From the NCBI GenBank assembly GCA_902599315.1, contig CACKEY010000001.1, positions 173,328 to 237,327 of the forward strand: DNA of 64,000 bases, given 5' to 3'. This stretch comes from an uncultured SAR86 cluster bacterium. Lineage in GTDB: Bacteria > Pseudomonadota > Gammaproteobacteria > Magnimaribacterales > D2472. The notes under the pieces were generated by a model. It was given only the letters and a program-made list of their open reading frames with translations. It was not told where the DNA came from and did no database searches. The position numbers and the translations under genes are program-made. This document shows, piece by piece, positions 54-40,012 of the stretch; position 1 is the first letter of the stretch; the number at the start of each line of letters is the position of its first letter.

Positions 54-1151
54 CTATATTAGGAGTGGCATAACAACATATTTAGGGCTATCGCTACTTG
101 GCGGTGTTAGCAGGCAGCTTTTATCAGATCCAAAGAAATTTATATTGCATGTATCTGTTTGCATGTGCGACATGATTTCTTGGAGATAGGTAACATTGAA
201 AGCTATATCTAAATCTTCACCCTTGTATAAAGCTGGGAAGAATTCTTCTGCCTCTTCTTGCTCTGGATTATTAGCTGAAATTCTTACTCCATCTGATGAA
301 GTAATTAATCTAACGCCTTTATATTTTTCACTAGATAAAACAGAGACTCTACTGAGAGTTTCTGAAAATTCCTTAACGTTAATTTCTAACATGGAGCTCT
401 CGCCAGACGGAATAACCTGTTGGTAATCTGGAAACTTTCCATCAATTAATTTACTTTTAAAAATTAGATTTCCAACCAAAAGTTCTAACGAGGAATCATT
501 AATTTTGAGCTCCGCATCACCAGGTTGATCAGAAAGAAATTTGGCCATCTCATTTATAGATTTTCTTGGAATAATGCCTGAAAACGAGTGATCAGAATTT
601 ATAGCAATATTAGCTACTGCCAATCTATGAGCATCAGTTGAAACAGCAGTGATTTGTCTATCGCCAATTGAAATAAAAAGACCATTTAAATAATGTCGCC
701 AATCTTGGTTTCCCATTGCAAAAGATGTATTTTTTATAAGTTCTTGTAGGTCTTTGGCAGGAATTACTAAAGGGTTATCACCGGGATCAATATCAAAAAT
801 AGGAAAGTCTGCACTGGGGAGAGTTGATAGTGAGTACTTACCATTTTTTGTTTTAATATTCAATTTTTCAGATTTTAATGACAAACTAATTTCCTCTCCG
901 TCAGGAATTAATCTGCAAAGCTCGTTTAATTTCTTAGCAGATGTTGTTATTTTTCCAACCGATTCCATGCCTAGTATTGAACCCGTGGTAGTAACCTCTG
1001 ATTCTAAATCTGTGGCTGTTAATTTAAATGAATTTTCGTCGACTTCAAATAGCACATTAGCAAGGATCGGGAGCGTCTGTCTTTTTTCTACAACCCCTAA
1101 TGTAATGTTAAGGGCCGATACAATATCCTCTTTTTTTAGGGTTATTTCCAT
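54..1151 (-). CDS. dnaN: DNA polymerase III beta sliding clamp
   Basis: 365-aa ORF of typical clamp length with a DnaN-like N-terminus (ILANVLFEV...). It lies directly downstream of dnaA with a 0-nt gap. Confidence 0.95.
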   Translation of the reverse strand: MEITLKKEDIVSALNITLGVVEKRQTLPILANVLFEVDENSFKLTATDLESEVTTTGSILGMESVGKITTSAKKLNELCRLIPDGEEISLSLKSEKLNIKTKNGKYSLSTLPSADFPIFDIDPGDNPLVIPAKDLQELIKNTSFAMGNQDWRHYLNGLFISIGDRQITAVSTDAHRLAVANIAINSDHSFSGIIPRKSINEMAKFLSDQPGDAELKINDSSLELLVGNLIFKSKLIDGKFPDYQQVIPSGESSMLEINVKEFSETLSRVSVLSSEKYKGVRLITSSDGVRISANNPEQEEAEEFFPALYKGEDLDIAFNVTYLQEIMSHMQTDTCNINFFGSDKSCLLTPPSSDSPKYVVMPLLI

Positions 1152-2441
1152 TTAGTTTGTAAGTGCCCTATTTAAATTTCTATAGTCTTCTTCAAGGGAT
1201 GGAATTTCTTTTCTTAATTCTTTTATTTTGCTACACGCATGGAGAACGGTCGTATGATCTCTTCCATTAAAAGCCTCTCCTATTTCAGGTAGGCTGTGGT
1301 TGGTTAATGACTTTGTAAGGGCCATGGCTAATTGTCTTGGGCGGGTTATTGAGCGGCTTCTTCTTTTGGAAAGAAGATCGGATAATTTGATGTTGTAATA
1401 CTCGGCAACAGTCTTTTGTATATTGTCAATGCTTACCATCTTCGCTGATATGACAAACAAATCTTTTAATGCATCTTTCACAAAAGGTACGTCTATCTCT
1501 TGATCAGTAAACCTTGAGTTTGCAACAACCCTTTTAAGAGCTCCCTCTAACTCTCTTATATTAGATCTAATTCTTTGTGCAATATAAATAGCACAATCAT
1601 CTGGAAGCTCGACCCCCATAGAATTAGCCTTGCTAAGAAGCACTGCTGCACGAGTTTCAAGCTCAGGAGGCTCTATAATTACAGGTAAACCCCATCCAAG
1701 CCTTGATTTTAAGCGCTCTTCGAGACCATCTATCTCCTTGGGGTATTTATCACATGTAAGTATCATCTGATGATTTCTGTCTAAAAGAGTGTTAAAAGTA
1801 TGAAAAAACTCCTCTTGTGACTGTTCTTTGCCGGCAAAAAACTGAATATCATCAATTAATAAAGCGTCAGCGTTCCTATAAAATTCTTTAAACTCGCTCA
1901 TAGCGCCTAATTGCAGGGCTTTTACCATGTCTGCTACAAACTTTTCTGAATGAACATACACTATTCTTTTTGAGGTGTCTGCGCTGAGAATTTCGTTTCC
2001 GACAGCATGCATAAGATGTGTTTTTCCTAACCCAACCCCGCCGTATATGAACAGGGGGTTATAATCACCCTTAGGGTTTGCTGCCACCTGTTTTGCTGCA
2101 GCAAGGGCCATATGGTTGGATTTTCCCTCTACGAAACTACTAAATGTAAAATTTTTAACAAGGGAAGGTTTGCTTTCTTCTGAAACATTGAGTTTGTCAA
2201 CAAATGTTGACTTATCTAATGTTTTAAATTTTACAACCAGTGATTCGTTAGATTTATTAACCAGGTTTTCTATTATTTGCCCGAGATTTTCTTGAACATA
2301 ATTTAATACAAAGTCATTGGGAGCACTTATTTCTAAATTATTTTCGTTAATATCTGCTTTTAGAGGCTTAATCCAAGTGTTAAACTCTTCTTGAGATAGC
2401 TTGGCTTCAAGCTTTTCAGTACATTCAGACCAAAATTTCAA
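1152..2441 (-). CDS. dnaA: Chromosomal replication initiator DnaA
   Basis: 429-aa ORF with a TTG start. It has the AAA+ Walker A motif [13 protein letters not shown] and a C-terminal DNA-binding region ([10 protein letters not shown]). Confidence 0.97.
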
Positions 2442-18498: not shown

Positions 18499-20325
18499 AT
18501 GTGTGGAATTATAGGGGCGGCATCATCTCGCAACGTAGGAAAGTTATTAGTTCAAGGCCTTCATAAGATGGAGTATCGTGGTTATGACTCAGCAGGTATA
18601 GCCCTCCATCAAAAAGACAGTATTTTTAATTTAAGAACTTTGGGAAAAGTAAGTTTGCTTGAAGATGGAATGATTGAGCATCGGCCAAAAAGCAAACTTG
18701 GAATTGCTCACACTCGCTGGGCAACTCACGGTCAACCTTCTAAAGAAAATGCACACCCACACGCATCAAGTGGAGAGGTTCACATTGTTCACAACGGAAT
18801 TATAGAAAATTACCTTGAGCTTACAGAAAAATTAAAAAAGGCTGGATATGCTTTCCAATCTGAAACTGACTCAGAGGTCATAGCACACTTACTTCATCAA
18901 CACATACAATCAAGCGGCGATTTGCTGTCCGCTATGCATGACGCTATAAAAGAGCTTGATGGCGCTTACGCCATAGCGGCCATTCATATTAAAAATAAAA
19001 ACAGATTAGTCGTTGCAAGAAACAAAAGCCCATTATTGATTGGGCTAGGCCTAGAGGAAAATTTTGCTGCTTCGGACCCCTTAGCTTTATCACAACTTAC
19101 TAATAAGTTTGTATTTCTTGAAGATGGTGATGTTGCAGAAATAACCAAGCAAAGTTATCAAGTTTTCGACGGAAAGAGTTCCCCTGTTAAAAGAGATGTA
19201 ACTGAAATAGACATAGCAGTTAATTCGGCTACTAAAGGAGAATATTCTCACTTTATGGAGAAAGAAATATATGAACAGCCTGATGCTGTTGCCAATACCA
19301 TAAATGGGAAACTTGGAGATGAGGACGTATTAGATAATATATTTGGTTTAGGCTCATCAGAGCTTTTTAGTAAGATTAAAAGAATTCAGTTTGTTGCATG
19401 TGGAACAAGCTTACATGCAGGCAAAGTAGGAAGGTTTTGGTTTGAGCGAATAGCTAAAATTCCATGTTATGTAGATTTTGCGAGTGAGTATAGATATAGA
19501 GAGCCTCTTGTAGAAGAGGGCACATTGTTTGTTACCATTTCACAATCCGGAGAAACCGCAGATACTTTGGCTGCCCTCAAATACGCAAAAGAAAAAGACT
19601 ATTTAAGCACATTGTCAATCTGCAACGTTCCAACCAGTTCGTTGGCTAGAGAATCAGAGCATGTTCTTTTTACTAATGCTGGCCCAGAAATTGGCGTTGC
19701 ATCAACAAAGGCATTTACTACTCAGCTGGCAGGTTTGATGCTGTTAGCCATGTCTATTGCAAAAAGCTTAAATCAAGATAAAGAATTAAGAAAAAAATTG
19801 GCTAGTGAACTAAGAAATTTGCCAAAGGTGATCGATAAGACATTGAAACTATCAAATGAGATCATGAAGATCGTTCCTAATATTGCTGATAAACACAATG
19901 CTTTATTCTTAGGAAGGGGCATGTTTTTTCCAATCGTTCAAGAAGGCGCACTGAAATTGAAAGAAATTTCATACATTCACGCTGAGGCTTACCCAGCAGG
20001 AGAGTTAAAACATGGGCCACTGGCATTGGTCGACGATCAAATTCCAGTGGTGGCATTATCCCCTGAAAATACTTTAACTGAAAAACTAGTCTCCAACCTG
20101 GAGGAGGTAAAGGCAAGGGGCGGCACGCTTTATGTATTTGGTGGAGAAAATTCAAAAATTAAAATCGAAAGAGGTGAATACATTCAAATGCCAGAATGTA
20201 GCGAATTGTTAGCTCCAATTATTTATACCATTCCACTTCAAATTCTTGCATATCAAGTTGCATGCCAAAGAGGCACTGATTTAGATCAACCTAGGAACTT
20301 AGCTAAGTCAGTTACGGTGGAATGA
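18499..20325 (+). CDS. glmS: Glutamine-fructose-6-phosphate aminotransferase GlmS
   Basis: The start is set at ATG 18499 (MCGIIGA, Ntn catalytic Cys2), 1 nt after the glmU stop. The track ORF from 18421 is an upstream extension. The protein has two SIS domains and the universal C-terminus NLAKSVTVE. Confidence 0.97.
   Translation: MCGIIGAASSRNVGKLLVQGLHKMEYRGYDSAGIALHQKDSIFNLRTLGKVSLLEDGMIEHRPKSKLGIAHTRWATHGQPSKENAHPHASSGEVHIVHNGIIENYLELTEKLKKAGYAFQSETDSEVIAHLLHQHIQSSGDLLSAMHDAIKELDGAYAIAAIHIKNKNRLVVARNKSPLLIGLGLEENFAASDPLALSQLTNKFVFLEDGDVAEITKQSYQVFDGKSSPVKRDVTEIDIAVNSATKGEYSHFMEKEIYEQPDAVANTINGKLGDEDVLDNIFGLGSSELFSKIKRIQFVACGTSLHAGKVGRFWFERIAKIPCYVDFASEYRYREPLVEEGTLFVTISQSGETADTLAALKYAKEKDYLSTLSICNVPTSSLARESEHVLFTNAGPEIGVASTKAFTTQLAGLMLLAMSIAKSLNQDKELRKKLASELRNLPKVIDKTLKLSNEIMKIVPNIADKHNALFLGRGMFFPIVQEGALKLKEISYIHAEAYPAGELKHGPLALVDDQIPVVALSPENTLTEKLVSNLEEVKARGGTLYVFGGENSKIKIERGEYIQMPECSELLAPIIYTIPLQILAYQVACQRGTDLDQPRNLAKSVTVE
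20299..20325 (+). repeat. Reference copy of the repeat: the genuine last 27 nt of glmS
   Basis: TTAGCTAAGTCAGTTACGGTGGAATGA encodes L-A-K-S-V-T-V-E-stop. Confidence 0.9.
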
Positions 20326-20355
20326 GTTTGAACAGAGAATTATTAGAATAAAATT

Positions 20356-20742
20356 ATGAAAAAAATAGTTTTTTCTATATTCGCAATTCTATTCATCAAT
20401 GTTGTTAATGCAAAAACCTTGGTTCTAGAATGCAGTCAAATAACTTCAGGATTCTCTCTAAAATCAGAAGTAATAATTAATACGAACACAGGGTTTATTT
20501 CTATGCATGGTTGGATAGTAAAAGATGAATTTGCCTATTCTGAAGAAAGTGGAGAGATAGAAGCATGGGGCATCATTAAAGAGTATGGAAATGACTCTGA
20601 TTTTCGTCATATTAAATACCTTGAAAAGGAAAAAATTCTTGCCTGGTCTGACTCATTTTTTAGACCTCGAGGAGTATTCGGAGATAATCCTCCGCATAAA
20701 TATGTATCCTCAGGTAATTTCCAAATTTTGAAATGCCAATAA
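20356..20742 (+). CDS. Hypothetical secreted protein (cassette unit 1)
   Basis: 128-aa ORF with an N-terminal signal peptide (MKKIVFSIFAILFINVVNA). I recognise no family. Confidence 0.65.
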   Translation: MKKIVFSIFAILFINVVNAKTLVLECSQITSGFSLKSEVIINTNTGFISMHGWIVKDEFAYSEESGEIEAWGIIKEYGNDSDFRHIKYLEKEKILAWSDSFFRPRGVFGDNPPHKYVSSGNFQILKCQ

Positions 20743-20840
20743 AATATCTCTTTCTATTCTGCATATTTTCCATAATTTGCAGTGCAGGGAAAAGATTTTT
20801 ACCATATGAGAAACGATGGATAAAAAATCAAATCACTGTT

Positions 20841-20867
20841 TTGTTCAAGTCAGTGACGGTAGAGTAG
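20841..20867 (+). repeat. glmS 3'-end repeat, copy 1
   Basis: TTGTTCAAGTCAGTGACGGTAGAGTAG would read L-F-K-S-V-T-V-E-stop. It matches the genuine end at 18 of 27 positions by hand count. Confidence 0.75.
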
Positions 20868-20899
20868 ATTTGGAAAATGATTTATATAGGAGATACTAA

Positions 20900-21169
20900 A
20901 TGTTAATAGCAGTAAGAGCAGAAGTTGAGAGCGTTGATCACTGGAGAGAAAAATTTAAGACTCACGATGATTTATTTAAAAGTCAGGGCGTCTCTCTTGC
21001 ACATATGGGAACAGCAAATGATAAAACAGTAATTGCTGTTTTTGAAACAAACGATGTTGATAAGTTTGTAAGAATATTTAATGATCCTTTAACTGCAGAG
21101 GCAATGTCAGAGGATAAAATAACAGGCGGTGTTGAGATGTTTATTCTAGACGAGACCTTTGAATTATAA
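20900..21169 (+). CDS. Hypothetical small soluble protein (cassette unit 2)
   Basis: 89-aa ORF with an AGGAG Shine-Dalgarno 8 nt upstream. I recognise no family with confidence. Confidence 0.6.
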   Translation: MLIAVRAEVESVDHWREKFKTHDDLFKSQGVSLAHMGTANDKTVIAVFETNDVDKFVRIFNDPLTAEAMSEDKITGGVEMFILDETFEL

Positions 21170-21183
21170 AAAACAGGTTGAGT

Positions 21184-21210
21184 TTATTTCAATCAGTCAC
21201 GGTGGAGTAG
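21184..21210 (+). repeat. glmS 3'-end repeat, copy 2
   Basis: TTATTTCAATCAGTCACGGTGGAGTAG would read L-F-Q-S-V-T-V-E-stop and matches the genuine end at 19 of 27 positions. It also shares AACAGAGAAT at the same +6 offset after the stop (21216-21225 versus 20331-20340). Confidence 0.8.
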
Positions 21211-21242
21211 AACAAAACAGAGAATAAAAAGATTGAAGTAAT

Positions 21243-21521
21243 ATGAAAAAGTTTATTGGAATATTCCTGACTTCTGCATTTATATTTGCAGTTTTATTAT
21301 CTGAGTATGATAGTTATTATGGTTCTTGGTTATTTTATGCGCTGGGAATGATGATGGTTGCCCTAGGATATATTTATAAGGGTGAGGAAAATTCAACAAG
21401 TTGTTTTTGGGTTGGTTTATTCATAATGCTGATAACTTTTGTGGGCGCAAATGTTTCAGGAAAAATTTCTATCGAGACTATAGAAATCTTACGTGAGACT
21501 TTGGAAAACATAGAAGAATAG
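21243..21521 (+). CDS. Small membrane protein, paralog of 23991-24251 (cassette unit 3)
   Basis: 92 aa with about three TM helices. It aligns with the 86-aa ORF at 23991 through shared Y-x-D-x-Y, LY-x-LG, G-L-x-I-x-x-ITF-x-G and SG-x-I positions. Confidence 0.65.
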   Translation: MKKFIGIFLTSAFIFAVLLSEYDSYYGSWLFYALGMMMVALGYIYKGEENSTSCFWVGLFIMLITFVGANVSGKISIETIEILRETLENIEE

Positions 21522-21541
21522 TAAGAGTGATTTTTAAAATT

Positions 21542-22657
21542 TTAAATTACTTCCGCAAGAGAATTTAAACAATACTCAATATTCTTTTTATTGGAAGATT
21601 GTCCCATAAGTCCAATGCGCCAAACTTTTCCCGCAAGAACTCCAAGACCAGCTCCAATTTCGAGATTAAATTCGTTTAACAGTCTTTGTCTTGATTCAAG
21701 ATCATTTACACCATCAGGAATATAGATAGCATTTAATTGAGGCAATCTGTCCTCTTCTTTTACTAAAAATTCAATATTTAATTTTTCTAAGCCCTCTCGG
21801 AGTTGAAGATGGTTCTCTTTATGTCTTTTCCATGAATTTTCTAGGCCTTCTTCACTTAACATTATCAAGGCTTCATGAAGTCCATATAATGAATTTATTG
21901 GTGCAGTATGATGATAAGATCGGCCTGCTTCTCCTTCCCAATATGACATGATTAAGTTTAAATCATGAAACCAACTCTTCACTTTTGATTTTCTATTCTT
22001 AATCTTTTCTTTTGCAGCTTTACTAAAACTAATTGGCGATAAACCAGGAGAAGCGGACAAACACTTTTGTGTACCAGAATAAATTGCGTCAATTCCCCAT
22101 TCATCTACTTTTAAAGGAACTCCAGCCAAACCAGTTACAGTATCTACAATTGATAAACATCCGTGGTCATGTGCTAATTTTGTAATTGATTCTGGATCTG
22201 TAAGAGCCCCGGTAGAGGTTTCAGCATGAACTGAAGCAACAATTTTTGCATCCTTATGTTCATTTAAGGCTGATTCAATTTTATTTAAGTCTACTTTTGT
22301 TCCCCATTCATCATCAATAACTATTGGTATTCCACCAAATCGCTCAACATTCTCTTTCATTCTTTCTCCAAAGAACCCATTTTTAGCAATAATTACCTTG
22401 TCATCAGGCTCAACAAGATTCGCAAAGCAAGATTCCATACCTGCCATACCAGGTGCTGATAAGGCAAAAGTTAACTCATTCTGTGTTTGAAATGCATATT
22501 GAAGTAACTGTTTTGTTTCATCCATCATTGTTATAAAAATAGGATCAAGATGACCAATAGTTGGTCTAGCCATAGCCTCCAAAACTCTATCGCAAACGTC
22601 AGATGGACCTGGACCCATTAAAATCCTATTTGGCGGTGTGAATGAATTTATTTTCAT
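21542..22657 (-). CDS. Class V aminotransferase (alanine-glyoxylate / serine-pyruvate aminotransferase family)
   Basis: 371 aa with the N-terminal LMGPGPS motif and the PLP-lysine region SGTQKCLSASPG typical of the AGXT/SPT family. Confidence 0.85.
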   Translation of the reverse strand: MKINSFTPPNRILMGPGPSDVCDRVLEAMARPTIGHLDPIFITMMDETKQLLQYAFQTQNELTFALSAPGMAGMESCFANLVEPDDKVIIAKNGFFGERMKENVERFGGIPIVIDDEWGTKVDLNKIESALNEHKDAKIVASVHAETSTGALTDPESITKLAHDHGCLSIVDTVTGLAGVPLKVDEWGIDAIYSGTQKCLSASPGLSPISFSKAAKEKIKNRKSKVKSWFHDLNLIMSYWEGEAGRSYHHTAPINSLYGLHEALIMLSEEGLENSWKRHKENHLQLREGLEKLNIEFLVKEEDRLPQLNAIYIPDGVNDLESRQRLLNEFNLEIGAGLGVLAGKVWRIGLMGQSSNKKNIEYCLNSLAEVI

Positions 22658-22766
22658 GGCGATATGATACTAGATAAACACTTTTCTTTTGAAAAAATGG
22701 ATAGGAAAAAGTCTAAAAAAAAGTACTTAAGTATAATGGGCATAGGGTTTAATAAAGGTAGATAGT

Positions 22767-22793
22767 TTAATCTATACAGTGACGGCGGAGTAG
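22767..22793 (+). repeat. glmS 3'-end repeat, copy 3 (most decayed)
   Basis: TTAATCTATACAGTGACGGCGGAGTAG would read L-I-Y-T-V-T-A-E-stop and matches the genuine end at 16 of 27 positions. Its 17-nt core matches copies 1 and 2 at 15 of 17 positions. Confidence 0.7.
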
Positions 22794-22826
22794 AAAGATA
22801 AAATTAGCTTTTTTAGGGCTTAAATA

Positions 22827-23117
22827 ATGGAAATAAATTGGGTGATTATAGGTTGGCTAATCGACATGACTCTTAATGGTTTTGTGTGGCTTATCATTGC
22901 AGCATTTTCTTTGTTAATAATTGATGTGACTGACAAATGGACAAGAAAAGCTGTTAAGTTGATGGGTAAAGCTGATGATTGGATAAGAAAATTTATAGAA
23001 GACGACTTATTTGAATTTATTCAAAAGAAGAACCTTAAAATGCTTACTAGCATTATTTTGTTAATTATCTTTGGTATTCTGGCTCAACTAGGAATAATAC
23101 CGAAGCTTATAACTTAA
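22827..23117 (+). CDS. Hypothetical membrane protein
   Basis: 96-aa ORF with two hydrophobic helices. It starts 33 nt after repeat copy 3. Confidence 0.55.
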   Translation: MEINWVIIGWLIDMTLNGFVWLIIAAFSLLIIDVTDKWTRKAVKLMGKADDWIRKFIEDDLFEFIQKKNLKMLTSIILLIIFGILAQLGIIPKLIT

Positions 23118-23277
23118 TATATTAAGATAATGAAAGTAATTTCAAATTTAATCCGTTAGCGGGCGATAAACTTAGTAAAAAAACACGGATTACTTTTAAA
23201 ATAAAATTAAATCACCATATAAATTCTATAGTTGCAAAGTTGTTTCGTTTGCAGAATAAATTTTAGGAGTATCAAAT

Positions 23278-32847: not shown

Positions 32848-33951
32848 TCATCTTAACTTTGTAATACTAAATATTTCATTTTTAAATTGGATTTCTTTTG
32901 ATTTATCTATGACTCTCCTTATCTTTTTTTGAAGCATTGTATTATTTTCCAATGCTTGAATATCTTTTTCTGCTATTTGACCAACATATAACATATTTGC
33001 CCATTTAGCATCTGTGTTATGGCCGAATAATTCCGTAACTGTTTTATCCGGCGCTCGTTTAAATGTGAAATAATAATTTTGAGGTTTAGAAAACTTATAA
33101 ATATTATTTTCTCCAAATGGGTTATCTTTTAAATGTTCAATGATATCTTTTGCTTTATTTGGAAAAGCTTCTTTATCTTTAAACGCTAACTTTAAGACCT
33201 TTTGAACAGAGTCTCCTCCAACTGAGTGAGTTATTAAAAGCTTTCCTGATTTATTCAATAACCTCATCAAGGGCCCAATAACATTTTTTACTTTTACGTT
33301 TACAGATGATGCCGCTCTGTATGCCTGGGATGCTAGTATCAAATCATAGTTATTGTTTTTGTAATTATTTTTCAAAAACTTCTTTAGATGTTTTTCATTG
33401 TCTTCTCTATAAACTCGGATAATGCACGGAGACGAGTATGCAGTTCGATCTTTTTTATCAATTTCTATTCCCCAATTTTTTTTAATAAAATTTCCTAAAA
33501 GATTTCCAGTTATTTGAGAATTAAAGTCAAACGAGTTGTTACTTTTAAGGACTAAATTAAATTCTTTAATTTTCTTATCTTTAATTTTATTTGAATTCTC
33601 AATTAATCCTAGTTCAGCAAATTTTACATTAGTCATCGTTATTAATAGATTTGGGTGCTCAACAAATCTATCTGGCATTTTCTCAAGTGTATTTTTTAAG
33701 TCTTCATAACTGATTTCTTTTCCAGTAATTAATAGGGAAGAGTATGGATGATATTTATGAAAGCTTTTAATAATATTAGAGAAGATTGTTCCGTCACCTG
33801 TCCCAGCATCTAAAATTCTTAAATATGATTTGTTATCAGATAAGCTTGCAATATGTGAATAAACTTTTTCAGAAATTGCTTTTTTCTCTCCTGTATTTTG
33901 AATAAACGATAAATACTTTAATCGATCATCAAAGAATCTTTTTTTGCCCAT
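32848..33951 (-). CDS. Hypothetical protein with a SAM-methyltransferase-like motif I
   Basis: 367 aa. ILDAGTGDGT resembles motif I of the class I methyltransferase fold. The rest is unrecognised and Lys/Asn-rich. Confidence 0.45.
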   Translation of the reverse strand: MGKKRFFDDRLKYLSFIQNTGEKKAISEKVYSHIASLSDNKSYLRILDAGTGDGTIFSNIIKSFHKYHPYSSLLITGKEISYEDLKNTLEKMPDRFVEHPNLLITMTNVKFAELGLIENSNKIKDKKIKEFNLVLKSNNSFDFNSQITGNLLGNFIKKNWGIEIDKKDRTAYSSPCIIRVYREDNEKHLKKFLKNNYKNNNYDLILASQAYRAASSVNVKVKNVIGPLMRLLNKSGKLLITHSVGGDSVQKVLKLAFKDKEAFPNKAKDIIEHLKDNPFGENNIYKFSKPQNYYFTFKRAPDKTVTELFGHNTDAKWANMLYVGQIAEKDIQALENNTMLQKKIRRVIDKSKEIQFKNEIFSITKLR

Positions 33952-38370: not shown

Positions 38371-38912
38371 TGGCAAAGATTACTCTACGAAAATTTCATA
38401 AATACATTAGTCTGCTAATAGCAATCCAGTTGCTGTTGTGGACAATATCTGGCATTTATTTTTCTTTTAACAAAATAGAAAATATTCGAGGAGAGCAGTA
38501 TCTTGTAGCTTCAACAAAAGCACCAATTGATACAAGTTTTAATGCAGATAAGCTTAATTTTAACGCTGCAAAAAAAATTGTAGAAAAAAAAACAACTCTT
38601 ATTCCTCAGAGCATCGAAATAATTGAAGAATCAAAAAGAGGATCTGAATACAGGGGAAGAGAATTGCCTTTGTATAAAGTGATATCTCTTACAAAACTTG
38701 GCAAAGAGGTCAACGTTTATCAAAACCCATTTACTGGTGAAATCGTTGCCATAAGATCCTCTGAATGGCGGATTTGGGATCTGATGTGGGGCTTGCATAT
38801 AATGGATTGGGTTGACCGAGATAATATTGATAATATACTTTTAAAAATTTTTTCATTTATTGCTCTATTTACGTCTATTTCCGGTGTAATACTTTTTTTT
38901 AAAAAATCATGA
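38370..38912 (+). CDS. PepSY domain-containing membrane protein
   Basis: 180 aa with the N-terminal LRKFHKYISLL TM segment typical of PepSY-TM proteins and a C-terminal TM helix. Its start overlaps the MerC stop by 1 nt. Confidence 0.6.
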   Translation: MAKITLRKFHKYISLLIAIQLLLWTISGIYFSFNKIENIRGEQYLVASTKAPIDTSFNADKLNFNAAKKIVEKKTTLIPQSIEIIEESKRGSEYRGRELPLYKVISLTKLGKEVNVYQNPFTGEIVAIRSSEWRIWDLMWGLHIMDWVDRDNIDNILLKIFSFIALFTSISGVILFFKKS

Positions 38913-40012
38913 AATTTCTTTTACTAAAAATATTTTTTCTCCTTTCAACTTTTCTTTTTGCTGAAGTTGATTCATTAGAACATGATCATGCAATGCATGA
39001 CCATTCAGCAATGACAGAAATGGATTCAAGCCATCATTCCATGAGCCACGGCTTTATTCCAATTGGGATAATGGGAAATATGCATCATAAAGGTTTCATG
39101 TTATCCATTAAACATGGGCGAATGAAAATGGATGGCAATATTTTAGACGGAAAAAATATTAGCGACTCAGAGATTCTTAGTATGAGAAATCCCCTTAGCA
39201 CTATGCCTACCAATCTTTCCATTATTCCTAAAAACATGGACATGAAGATGACCATGATTGATGCCATGTTTGCGCCCAACAATAATTTTACTTTTATGTT
39301 GATGGCAACCTATGTTTCCAAAGACATGAACCTAAGTTCATTTTCTCCCATGATGGCAAGAAACCTAGTGGGACAATTTAGTACATCTGCAAGCGATCTT
39401 TCAAGCCTTACTCTTAGCGGTCTCTTTAATATTAGTCAAACCGATAATTCAAAATGGCATGGAGAGATTTCACTAAAAGAATCAATTGGCAAAAATGACT
39501 CTACGGCAATGGCATTAACACCTATGGGAAAAAAAATAAAAATGATCATGCCCTATGCAATGCAGCCTGGGGATGACTCTACAAGCCTAATCTTTGGTTT
39601 AACCAATTTAAGAGAATTAGGTGAAGGTATTTTCTTGGGCAATCAGCTTAAAAGAAAAAATGTTGTCTCAGAGGCAGATTGGTCTTTTGGCGATGCAACA
39701 GAGCTTAGCTCATGGGTACAATATTCATTATCAAAGATAATGTCTATCTCATCTAGACTAAAGTTTGTTGACGCAGATAGCTTGTCTGGAAGAAACCCAT
39801 TAATTATGGCCCCAGTCCAAACTGCAAATCCAAATAATTATGGTGGTAAAGAATTACACTTGGGCCTAGGTATGAATTTAAACTTGGATCTCTTACCTGG
39901 TGGCAAAGATACCATTGGCATTGAAATACTAAAACCTCTTGATCAAGATAAAAATAACCTTCAAATGAAAACAGACTATCAAATTATTATTGGATATCAA
40001 AAAAGTTTATAA
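38909..40012 (+). CDS. Secreted His/Met-rich protein, possible outer-membrane beta-barrel
   Basis: 367 aa with a signal peptide followed by EHDHAMHDHSAMTEMDSSHHSMSHG. The rest has alternating beta-strand-like character. It overlaps the PepSY gene by 4 nt (ATGA). Confidence 0.5.
   Translation: MKFLLLKIFFLLSTFLFAEVDSLEHDHAMHDHSAMTEMDSSHHSMSHGFIPIGIMGNMHHKGFMLSIKHGRMKMDGNILDGKNISDSEILSMRNPLSTMPTNLSIIPKNMDMKMTMIDAMFAPNNNFTFMLMATYVSKDMNLSSFSPMMARNLVGQFSTSASDLSSLTLSGLFNISQTDNSKWHGEISLKESIGKNDSTAMALTPMGKKIKMIMPYAMQPGDDSTSLIFGLTNLRELGEGIFLGNQLKRKNVVSEADWSFGDATELSSWVQYSLSKIMSISSRLKFVDADSLSGRNPLIMAPVQTANPNNYGGKELHLGLGMNLNLDLLPGGKDTIGIEILKPLDQDKNNLQMKTDYQIIIGYQKSL

What the first reader, a model, noticed from the sequence alone, without database searches (positions are those of the whole stretch)
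20841..21210. The pseudo-termini keep the SVTVE-stop reading frame through synonymous-only substitutions
Inside the S-V-T-V-E-stop codons, every difference among the live end, copy 1 and copy 2 is synonymous or a stop-for-stop change.
- TCA / TCA / TCA
- GTT / GTG / GTC
- ACG / ACG / ACG
- GTG / GTA / GTG
- GAA / GAG / GAG
- TGA / TAG / TAG

The codons just upstream have diverged (LAK, LFK, LFQ). Only copy 3 carries replacements (TVTAE).

That pattern is what purifying selection at the protein level leaves behind. It implies that copies 1 and 2 were once functional glmS ends, in other lineages or carried on incoming elements, rather than random look-alikes or a DNA-level protein-binding motif. 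The three displaced copies are more like each other (GAGTAG) than like the current end (GAATGA). This is consistent with the current end being the most recent arrival.
Basis: partly seen in the sequence, partly recalled or inferred. Interest (0 to 1): 0.6.

Follow-up and report, generated by a model that had tools for sequence, protein, structure and literature searches.

The report
Mobile gene cassettes stacked behind glmS
The repeated look-alikes of the end of the essential gene glmS are scars left each time a small mobile gene cassette plugged into the last codons of that gene, bringing its own spare copy of them; the same cassette system, most likely run by a large serine recombinase, is shared by SAR86 and other ocean bacteria.

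Summary
The live glmS end (20308-20325) and displaced copies at 20850, 21193 and 22776 differ almost only at third codon positions or stop-for-stop. A fourth, decayed copy lies at 23152.

The copies are not isolated relics. They bound a tandem array of four small cassettes. The same architecture follows glmS in all 20 SAR86 reference loci that have downstream sequence, in at least 120 marine metagenome contigs, in Porticoccaceae, and as one AT-rich cassette in a 62%-GC Gemmatimonadota.

Each cassette carries matching inverted arms. Joined end to end, they form a 54-bp dyad-symmetric site centred on the invariant A7-C8. Identical cassettes occur with different neighbours.

Some arrays hold an autonomous element with the same ends that encodes a large serine recombinase (LSR). 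An attP-type junction of that element was also found.

Best reading: an SCC-like, LSR-driven cassette platform targeting the glmS terminus.

It does not hold for the left third, which travels with the upstream cassette. The motif is also a recombinase site.

No description was found in the searchable literature. Nothing here was tested experimentally.

The parts
18499..20325 (+). glmS (608 aa, begins MCGIIGA). It is the target gene, and its last 18 nt form the left boundary of the array.
   Evidence: Pfam finds GATase_6/7 plus two SIS domains. The start was read from the translation. The atp-glmU-glmS synteny is seen.
20308..20325 (+). Live glmS terminus TCAGTT-AC-GGTGGAATGA (attL-type site). 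The inferred crossover dinucleotide AC is at 20314-20315. Bases from 20314 on are inferred to have arrived with cassette 1.
20326..20849 (+). Cassette 1. Right arm GTTTGAACAGAGAATT (20326-20341); ORF 20356-20742 (128 aa, no Pfam hit); left arm AAATCACTGTTTTGTT (20830-20845); spacer CAAG (20846-20849).
   Evidence: The two arms match only 10 of 16.
20850..20867 (+). Displaced terminus, copy 1: TCAGTG-AC-GGTAGAGTAG.
20868..21192 (+). Cassette 2. ORF 20900-21169 (89 aa). The identical protein is found on 6 metagenome contigs with 5 different upstream and 3 different downstream neighbours.
21193..21210 (+). Displaced terminus, copy 2: TCAGTC-AC-GGTGGAGTAG.
   Evidence: The same 18-mer is a live end in L019 and L044.
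21211..22775 (+). Cassette 3, composite. It holds a 92-aa ORF (21243-21521, +) and a class-V aminotransferase (21542-22657, minus strand). This distal block is shared with L001, L002, L003, L005, L006 and L013.
22776..22793 (+). Displaced terminus, copy 3: ACAGTG-AC-GGCGGAGTAG (TVTAE*). Its position is conserved in relatives and it is decaying there too.
22794..23151 (+). Cassette 4. ORF 22827-23117 (96 aa, no Pfam hit).
23152..23169 (+). Fourth, decayed displaced terminus: TCCGTTA|GCGGGCGATAA. Homology to L002 and L003 is perfect up to position 7 and ends there.

Best explanation
The pseudo-termini are attachment-site scars of a tandem array of small mobile gene cassettes. The cassettes integrate by conservative site-specific recombination into the last codons of glmS.

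**Shown**
- Every cassette begins with '(AC)N GTN GAR stop + right arm' and ends with 'left arm + 4 nt + TCN GTN'.
- Joined head to tail, these ends form a site of about 54 bp: 16-bp arm, 10 bp, AC, 10 bp, 16-bp arm. It has dyad symmetry around the invariant, non-palindromic A7-C8.
- Integration replaces the end of glmS with a synonymous copy carried by the cassette and pushes the old end downstream.
- Repetition stacks cassettes. Identical cassettes occur at different ranks and with different neighbours. Empty and occupied alleles coexist.

**Inferred**
- The enzyme is a large serine recombinase (LSR) that cuts at the AC.
- The LSR is encoded by rare autonomous elements that have the same ends and sit in the same place (L170, L175, L161). 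It acts in trans on the many cassettes that encode no recombinase.
- Cassette genes are expressed by read-through from glmS.

**Why the copies look synonymous**
- The right part must restore T-V-E-stop of an essential enzyme whenever its cassette sits first. That is protein-level selection on the cassette.
- The whole core must also stay recognisable to a recombinase whose natural target varies only at wobble positions. That is a DNA-level constraint.
For: **Arrays**
- Pseudo-ends on the glmS strand follow glmS in all 20 SAR86 loci with more than 1 kb of downstream sequence.
- At least 120 metagenome contigs carry them. In all 35 contigs that captured a glmS sequence, glmS lies immediately upstream of the first site.

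**Cassette-specific inverted arms**
- Arms of the same cassette match 10.2 of 16. Arms flanking the same site match 8.3, and random pairs 8.2.
- 61.6% of cells are paired against 49.6±1.1 in shuffles and 33-42% in slid registers. There are 218 compensatory cells against 127 expected, and 0 of 500 shuffles reached this.
- In 258 distinct cassettes, Watson-Crick pairing is 59.6% in register and 25-33% out of register.

**Mobility**
- The same 89-aa cassette occurs in 6 contexts, including directly behind a live end.
- Shared cassettes sit at different ranks in different arrays.

**Crossover position**
- Positions 3 and 6 are linked to the upstream cassette (0.90 and 0.68).
- Positions 9, 12 and 15 are linked to the downstream cassette (0.57, 0.79 and 0.83).
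- Porticoccaceae alleles with identical GlmS diverge right after TCCGTCAC.
- Window homology with L002 and L003 breaks after position 7.
- The symmetry axis falls between A7 and C8.

**Empty versus occupied sites**
- Gemmatimonadota relatives have TCGGTCACGGTGGAGTGA followed directly by dtd.
- L100 has a 168-bp AT-rich cassette between TCGGTGACGGTGGAGTAG and TCGGTAACGGTGGAGTGA.

**Recombinase**
- An LSR (Resolvase + Recombinase ± Zn ribbon, YTRVSTAEQ motif) lies at the glmS end in L161, L164, L166 and L168.
- 30%-identical homologues (to that Porticoccaceae LSR) lie in the SAR86-type contigs L099, L143 and L147.
- In SAR86 genome L170, a 7.7-kb LSR element is the first cassette. Its two arms are complementary at 18 of 18 positions.
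- L175 shows the same arrangement with a 50%-identical LSR.
- L099 is the circular permutation of the L170 element, that is, an attP-type junction.

**Geometry and selection**
- The site geometry matches published LSR attP sites: 25-bp half-sites, about 50 bp contacted, a central dinucleotide (PMC3783163).
- The non-stop TGG is avoided.

**Cassette design**
- 289 distinct cassettes, median 569 bp.
- In 89% the longest ORF runs in the same direction as glmS. ORFs start a median of 32 nt after the core.
- There is no excess of promoter-like or terminator-like sites.
Against: - No recombinase gene lies in the 64-kb window or within 10 kb downstream of glmS in the 24 reference loci. Action in trans is therefore assumed.
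- The link between the LSR and the small cassettes rests on shared end architecture and location. No activity was demonstrated.
- Canonical LSRs recombine only attP with attB (PMC3783163). Here, repeated insertion must use a site that is already half attP-like.
- The arms covary well beyond one binding consensus. A single DNA-binding specificity does not predict that, and it would suit a folded-DNA substrate better.
- Position 9 is poorly linked to either side.
- The window's own cassettes 1 and 2 have weakly matched arms.
- The L099 junction could also come from two tandem copies rather than a circle.
Confidence: 0.78

Rival explanations
1. Integron-like mechanism. The cassette ends fold as single-stranded hairpins (arms as stem, glmS mimic in the loop). 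A tyrosine recombinase or an HUH nuclease encoded elsewhere recombines them with the glmS end.
For: - Arm sequences differ widely between cassettes but stay complementary. This is structure-like conservation, as in attC sites.
- Cassettes are short, single-ORF, co-oriented and promoterless.
- Most arrays have no recombinase nearby.
Against: - No tyrosine recombinase or HUH gene was seen in any array examined.
- Elements with the very same ends encode an LSR, and an LSR sits at the site in three host groups.
- Exchange maps to the centre of the would-be loop, not to a stem as in attC.
- The sites have no R''/L''-L'/R' boxes or GTTRRRY core, by inspection of the site sequences. Rfam gave no hit, but it was not shown to hold an attC model.
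- The G·T versus A·C mismatch test for a preferred strand was inconclusive.
Confidence: 0.1
2. Each whole 18-mer is a former complete glmS terminus, kept synonymous only by protein-level purifying selection. It has no role as a DNA site.
For: - Synonymous changes far outnumber non-synonymous ones.
- TGG is avoided.
- The variants occur as live ends.
Against: - The left six bases are inherited with the upstream cassette, not with glmS.
- Displaced copies are not translated as GlmS, yet they stay conserved together with a conserved A two bases upstream of the core and with the flanking arms. Together these form a dyad-symmetric site.
- The copies bound mobile units.
Confidence: 0.05
3. Transposition with target-site duplication, for example a Tn7-like element guided to attTn7. 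On this view the copies are duplicated target sequence.
For: - glmS's 3' end is the classic Tn7 target (own knowledge).
- The cassettes have terminal inverted repeats.
Against: - The flanking copies differ from each other, and each half travels with a cassette across different hosts. A target duplication would give identical, host-derived copies.
- In the Gemmatimonadota case the stop is TAG in the live copy and the host's TGA in the displaced copy.
- No Tns or DDE genes belong to the arrays.
- Tn7 inserts downstream of glmS with a 5-bp duplication and does not replace codons (own knowledge).
Confidence: 0.03
4. A chance or regulatory repeat, such as a terminator or a binding site for a glmS regulator, unrelated to mobility.
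For: The copies lie in intergenic positions on the sense strand. Neighbouring arms of the common type could pair in mRNA.
Against: - 5 hits against 1.13 expected.
- No excess of terminator-like sites.
- Complementarity follows the cassette, not the site.
- Cassettes shuffle between contexts and occur in three phylogenetically distant host groups.
Confidence: 0.02

Closest known systems
Staphylococcal cassette chromosome (SCC / SCCmec) with Ccr large serine recombinases
   Same: - Integration into the 3' end of a conserved gene near oriC.
- The replaced codons differ in sequence but encode the same peptide.
- Elements are bounded by direct repeats that contain the integration site, and by terminal inverted repeats.
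- Elements stack in tandem, and both repeats can serve as sites for the next element.
- Elements without recombinase genes coexist with recombinase-bearing ones.

(PMC3780952.)
   Different: - The target is glmS, not orfX/rlmH.
- The hosts are marine Gram-negative oligotrophs (SAR86, Porticoccaceae) and a Gemmatimonadota, not staphylococci.
- Cassettes are tiny (median 0.57 kb, usually one co-oriented ORF). Most arrays have no recombinase at all.
- The autonomous element pairs one LSR with a small resolvase-type recombinase, rather than CcrA/CcrB.
- Orthology to Ccr was not tested.
Integrons (IntI, attI, attC cassette arrays)
   Same: - Arrays of short, promoterless, co-oriented single-gene cassettes at one fixed site.
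- Turnover mainly at the proximal end.
- Cassette sites are imperfect palindromes whose arms covary.
   Different: - No IntI tyrosine recombinase.
- No attC box structure.
- The attachment site is inside an essential gene's last codons.
- Exchange occurs at the centre of the palindrome.
- The associated enzyme is a serine recombinase.
Tn7 / attTn7 (TnsD recognition of the glmS 3' end)
   Same: Both exploit the same universally conserved glmS C-terminal coding sequence as a safe, host-independent landing site. In both, recognition must tolerate wobble variation (own knowledge of Tn7).
   Different: Tn7 is a DDE/TnsABC+D transposon. It inserts downstream of the stop with a 5-bp duplication. It neither replaces codons nor leaves copies of the gene end.
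Serine-recombinase genomic islands stacked at ssrA in Dehalococcoides, and integrase islands at tRNA/tmRNA genes in general
   Same: The target gene's 3' end is regenerated by the island and the displaced fragment marks the island end. Tandem accretion occurs (PMC3146451 and PMC4383910, abstracts seen).
   Different: Those targets are RNA genes, so no codon-level signature arises. The islands are kilobases long and normally carry their own integrase.

Membership tests
LSR-driven, SCC-type cassette integration | A large serine recombinase (catalytic Resolvase domain with the active-site Ser motif, Recombinase domain, zinc ribbon, coiled coil) is encoded by elements at the site. | tested here: met
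   Met in related loci, not in the window.
- L161: Resolvase + Recombinase + Zn_ribbon_recom.
- L099: Resolvase + Recombinase, YTRVSTAEQ motif, a Cys cluster and a long heptad-rich stretch.
- L170 and L175 carry homologues.
- No LSR in the window.
LSR-driven, SCC-type cassette integration | An attP of about 50 bp that is pseudo-palindromic around a non-palindromic central dinucleotide. | tested here: met
   The joined cassette ends give 16 + 10 + AC + 10 + 16 = 54 bp. Complementarity is 0.92 at offsets 5, 6 and 8, and 0.5-0.72 across the arms. The centre AC is 98-99% invariant. An intact example is L099 1845-1898. Reference geometry: PMC3783163.
LSR-driven, SCC-type cassette integration | Strand exchange occurs at the central dinucleotide. 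| tested here: inconclusive
   Comparative mapping places exchange between positions 6 and 9. Breakpoints fall after position 7 or 8.
LSR-driven, SCC-type cassette integration | Elements are flanked by direct repeats holding the target gene's 3' end, have inverted termini, and stack in tandem. | tested here: met
LSR-driven, SCC-type cassette integration | The target gene's end is replaced by element sequence that encodes the same peptide. | tested here: met
   52 of the 54 ends scored as live read SVTVE-stop; all 24 in the genome loci do. The right half is linked to the first cassette. Porticoccaceae alleles with identical GlmS protein have different terminal nucleotides.
LSR-driven, SCC-type cassette integration | The recombinase actually integrates and excises the cassettes. 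| not testable with these tools
   This needs an in vitro or in vivo recombination assay.
Staphylococcal SCC proper | ccrAB or ccrC genes and integration at rlmH (orfX). | tested here: not met
   The target is glmS. The hosts are Gammaproteobacteria and Gemmatimonadota. Orthology of the LSR to Ccr was not tested.
Integron | An IntI tyrosine recombinase gene next to the attachment site. | tested here: not met
   Upstream of the arrays lie glmU-glmS and the atp operon. No Phage_integrase-type hit was found among the window ORFs or array ORFs scanned.
Integron | attC sites with R''/L''-L'/R' boxes and crossover in the GTTRRRY core. | tested here: not met
   The conserved part is the central 18-mer, not the outer boxes. 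The arms (for example GTTTAAAC or GTTTGAAC) do not fit GTTRRRY. Exchange maps to the centre of the site.
Integron | An array of short, promoterless, co-oriented cassettes. | tested here: met
   Median cassette length 569 bp and 89% co-oriented. No promoter excess.
Tn7-like transposon at attTn7 | tnsABCD-type genes, Tn7 ends, insertion downstream of glmS with a 5-bp duplication. | tested here: not met
   No such genes were found in the arrays. Insertion replaces codons and leaves 18-nt copies whose halves are not duplicates of each other.

The most novel reading that the evidence does not exclude
A so far undescribed ocean-wide gene-cassette exchange platform. Hundreds of different miniature cassettes, almost all without a recombinase of their own, plug into the universally conserved last codons of glmS. 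Each carries a spare copy of the gene end. They are moved in trans by a family of large serine recombinases.

On this reading they circulate between phyla, from AT-rich SAR86 to a 62%-GC Gemmatimonadota. The platform would play, for streamlined marine bacteria, the role that integrons play elsewhere. The unexplained covariation of the arms could mean that recognition depends on DNA structure rather than sequence, which would be new for serine recombinases.
Probability: 0.45. Interest if true: 0.85.

Novelty: new variant of a known kind. Interest (0 to 1): 0.72.

Why it matters
- SAR86 is among the most abundant bacteria of the surface ocean and has a small, streamlined genome. A dedicated hot spot next to the replication origin that collects and swaps hundreds of different single-gene cassettes would be a main route for its flexible gene content. 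It would also be a marker locus for strain-level population studies.
- The system shows how a mobile element can use an essential gene safely. It carries a synonymous replacement for the codons it removes, and the stop codon is kept even in displaced copies.
- Nearly the whole recognised target lies in the conserved coding sequence DQPRNLAKSVTVE-stop. The host range could therefore be very broad. This bears on horizontal transfer between phyla. It also bears on the search for serine integrases with a ready-made landing site in many bacteria.
- For annotation: short ORFs that end in ...SVTVE behind glmS, such as window 20733-20867, are artefacts of these scars.

Tried and rejected
- **Rfam on the array**: no match.
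- **Viral contig scans** for the site and for the LSR: nothing. There is no support for a phage origin.
- **Search for an integrase or transposase by Pfam**, among 40 window ORFs and 20 ORFs in related arrays: none. The cargo includes HNH nucleases, methyltransferases, a DNA methylase, sulfotransferases and similar genes. Twenty more large metagenome cassette ORFs were read by eye and none looked like a recombinase.
- **Extension of the arm helix into the 4-nt spacer and the stop codon**: 57% complementary but no covariation. I now read this as dyad symmetry of a binding site, not as pairing.
- **Test for a folding strand** by comparing G·T with A·C mismatches: A·C was more frequent, but the out-of-register controls varied as much. 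Inconclusive.
- **XerCD/dif-like site:** only a loose resemblance (TGTTTAAA against TGTTAAA), recalled from memory. The geometry does not fit. Dropped.
- **HUH nuclease nicking before AC in a loop:** considered because of the GTN|AC resemblance to Rep nick sites. Dropped once the LSR elements were found.
- **Exact look-up of the window's GlmS**: not on record.
- **PDB sequence search with the LSR**: no hit.
- **Literature searches**: no paper on glmS-linked cassette arrays or on LSRs that target glmS.

Full report
**1. The observation**

The window is from a SAR86 gammaproteobacterium. It starts at dnaN/dnaA and runs through parAB, the atp operon and glmU to glmS (18499-20325).

- Live end: 20308-20325.
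- Copy 1: 20850-20867.
- Copy 2: 21193-21210.
- Copy 3: 22776-22793.

The motif is over-represented: 5 hits against 1.13 expected. A fourth, decayed copy lies at 23152-23169. No tRNA gene lies in the window. Pfam scans of 40 of its ORFs and a tblastn with the LSR found no recombinase.

**2. The copies bound cassettes, and this is general**

I fetched glmS loci from 24 SAR86 species representatives. Every locus with more than 1 kb of downstream sequence (20 of 20) carries 1-8 displaced ends on the glmS strand.

Each displaced end has the form: left arm (about AATCACTGTTTAAAC), 4 nt, TCNGTNACNGTNGARTRR, right arm (about GTTTAAACAGTGATT).

The right arm after one site is complementary to the left arm before the next site. 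So each inter-site segment has its own inverted ends.
- Same-cassette arms match 10.2 of 16. Arms around one site match 8.3, and random pairs 8.2.
- I aligned the head-to-tail junctions of 65 distinct cassettes. 61.6% of cells pair, against 49.6% in shuffles and 33-42% in shifted registers. There are 218 compensatory cells against 127 expected.
- In 258 distinct cassettes, in-register Watson-Crick pairing is 59.6% against 25-33%.

Cassette properties:
- 289 distinct cassettes, median length 569 bp.
- In 89% the longest ORF points the same way as glmS.
- ORFs start a median of 32 nt after the core.
- The window region has no excess of promoter-like or terminator-like sites.

**3. The cassettes move**

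The identical 89-aa protein of window cassette 2 is encoded on six metagenome contigs. These show five different upstream neighbours and three different downstream neighbours. On one contig (L027) the cassette lies directly behind a live glmS end.

Homologous cassettes occupy different ranks in different genomes. Most cassettes are unique to one genome. In the window's close relatives the distal block is shared and the proximal cassettes differ.

**4. Where the exchange happens**

I compared sites that share only the upstream cassette or only the downstream cassette.
- Wobble positions 3 and 6 follow the upstream cassette (0.90 and 0.68; background 0.37 and 0.25).
- Positions 9, 12 and 15 follow the downstream cassette (0.57, 0.79 and 0.83).

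Three independent breakpoints agree with this.
- Porticoccaceae alleles with identical GlmS diverge right after TCCGTCAC.
- The window's fourth copy loses homology to L002 and L003 after position 7.
- In a Gemmatimonadota, the host's TGA stop stays with the displaced copy, while the live copy carries the cassette's TAG.

The symmetry axis of the arms falls exactly between A7 and C8. These two bases are 98-99% invariant, and the pair is not a palindrome. The inner region is also symmetric: T1/A14, C2/G13, and the conserved A two bases upstream of the core with T16, each 0.92 complementary. This explains why the spacer and stop looked complementary without covarying.

**5. The enzyme**

No recombinase is found in most arrays.

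In a Porticoccaceae population with one identical GlmS protein, there are three kinds of contig.
- Four contigs carry a 586-aa large serine recombinase abutting the glmS end.
- Five contigs have a flank with no displaced end, the likely empty allele.
- One contig has a third flank.

A tblastn with that protein then found 30%-identical homologues in the SAR86-type contigs L099, L143 and L147. These have Resolvase and Recombinase domains, the YTRVSTAEQ active-site motif, a Cys cluster and a coiled-coil-like stretch. Each is paired with a small Resolvase+HTH_7 recombinase.

Further examples:
- In SAR86 genome GCA_028339505.1 (L170), a 7.7-kb element ending in this gene pair is the first cassette behind glmS. 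Its two arms are complementary at 18 of 18 positions. Five recombinase-less cassettes with their own matched arms follow.
- L175 shows the same arrangement with a 50%-identical LSR and yet another arm sequence.
- L099 and L143 carry the LSR, then an intact arm-core-arm site, then the start of the element. This is a circular permutation of the integrated L170 element, that is, an attP-type junction.

The family has 161 homologues at E<1e-20, mostly on 2-10 kb contigs.

The 54-bp dyad site with a central dinucleotide matches what is published for LSR attP sites (PMC3783163).

**6. Host range**

Contigs with the same cassette architecture follow glmS genes that are only 45-70% identical to the window's.
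- L044, with seven sites, is Porticoccaceae.
- L100 and L034, at 62% GC, are marine Gemmatimonadota. They hold one 168-bp AT-rich cassette. Relatives with 92-93% identical GlmS have the empty site.
- Some hosts write the Ser codon as AGY, while incoming elements carry TCN.

**7. What this means for the finding**

The right part of each copy (from AC on) arrives with a cassette and becomes the working end of glmS. Its stop function is visibly selected: TGG occurs 4 times against 16.9 expected (p=7.6e-7), and position 15 is a purine in 207 of 208 sites.

The left six bases arrive with the upstream cassette and are never part of glmS under this crossover. Yet they show the same wobble-only variation (synonymous 337, non-synonymous 77). 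That part of the pattern is best explained at the DNA level. The recombinase must recognise natural glmS ends, which vary only at wobble positions, so cassette sites are free to drift at exactly those positions.

Protein-level and DNA-level constraints are therefore superimposed.

**8. Comparison with known systems**

The closest known system is the staphylococcal cassette chromosome. The shared features are (PMC3780952):
- Ccr large serine recombinases;
- a target at the 3' end of orfX near oriC;
- direct repeats plus inverted repeats;
- tandem stacking;
- 15 bp of orfX replaced with the peptide unchanged.

The system here differs in target gene, hosts, miniature cassette size, the rarity of recombinase-bearing members, and the pairing of an LSR with a small serine recombinase.

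It works like an integron in its cassette logic, but it fails the integron's defining features. It shares only the choice of target with Tn7.

I found no description of it in the searchable literature. That is not proof that none exists.

**9. Open points**
- Why the arms covary beyond a single consensus.
- How an LSR can reuse a site that is already half attP-like.
- The weak linkage of position 9.
- The role of the small recombinase.
- The poorly matched arms of the window's cassettes 1 and 2.

None of the mechanism has been tested experimentally.

Noticed in passing
window 23152-23169: A fourth, decayed pseudo-terminus (TCCGTTAGCGGGCGATAA) lies after the 96-aa ORF. It is homologous to intact copies in L002 and L003, and the homology ends exactly after position 7 of the core.
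   Followed up: yes
window 23243-23262: 'tttcgtttgcagaataaatt', just upstream of the Zn_peptidase_2 gene, resembles the right arm 'tttcgtttgcagaatta' that follows live or displaced ends in L006, L007, L008, L010 and L011. It may be an older scar or the ancestral flank.
   Followed up: no
window 54-2441 relative to 20308: The array lies about 18 kb from dnaN/dnaA, in the origin-proximal region and on the strand with positive GC skew. SCC occupies the equivalent 'oriC environ' in staphylococci.
   Followed up: partly
window 20733-20867: The 44-aa ORF that ends in ...SVTVE* is an artefact created by copy 1. Gene callers may annotate such ORFs behind glmS.
   Followed up: partly
L140, L142, L127 and L175 live glmS ends: These hosts encode the Ser of SVTVE with AGY, while integrated elements carry TCN in their left half. 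Positions 1-3 of the host site therefore seem not to be needed for recombination.
   Followed up: partly
L013 11986 (minus strand) and 12273 (plus strand): Two copies of an unusual core (CCCATCACGGTGGAGTAR) face each other in inverted orientation about 270 bp apart. This may be an inversion within an array.
   Followed up: no
L173 3970-4023 (MAG GCA_030746975.1, labelled Alphaproteobacteria): A 46%-identical LSR with its small recombinase sits next to a longer glmS-tail remnant (DQPRNLVITVTVE*). There is also a direct repeat of about 60 bp around a 1.4-kb insert. glmS itself is off the contig.
   Followed up: partly
L001 11311-12240, L010 10927-11862, L002 12738-13499: Three unrelated HNH endonuclease cassettes occur among 24 arrays, two of them in the first cassette. 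Other cargo includes an N6/N4 DNA methylase, T5orf172, Exo_endo_phos, DUF6994, MORN-repeat proteins and sulfotransferases.
   Followed up: partly
window 32848-33951 (-) and 38909-40012 (+): Two 367-aa ORFs have no Pfam match.
   Followed up: no
L014 and L016 (record titles): Contigs with 93% SAR86-type glmS are deposited in MAGs labelled Neomarinimicrobiota and Flavobacteriaceae. This is probably a binning error.
   Followed up: no
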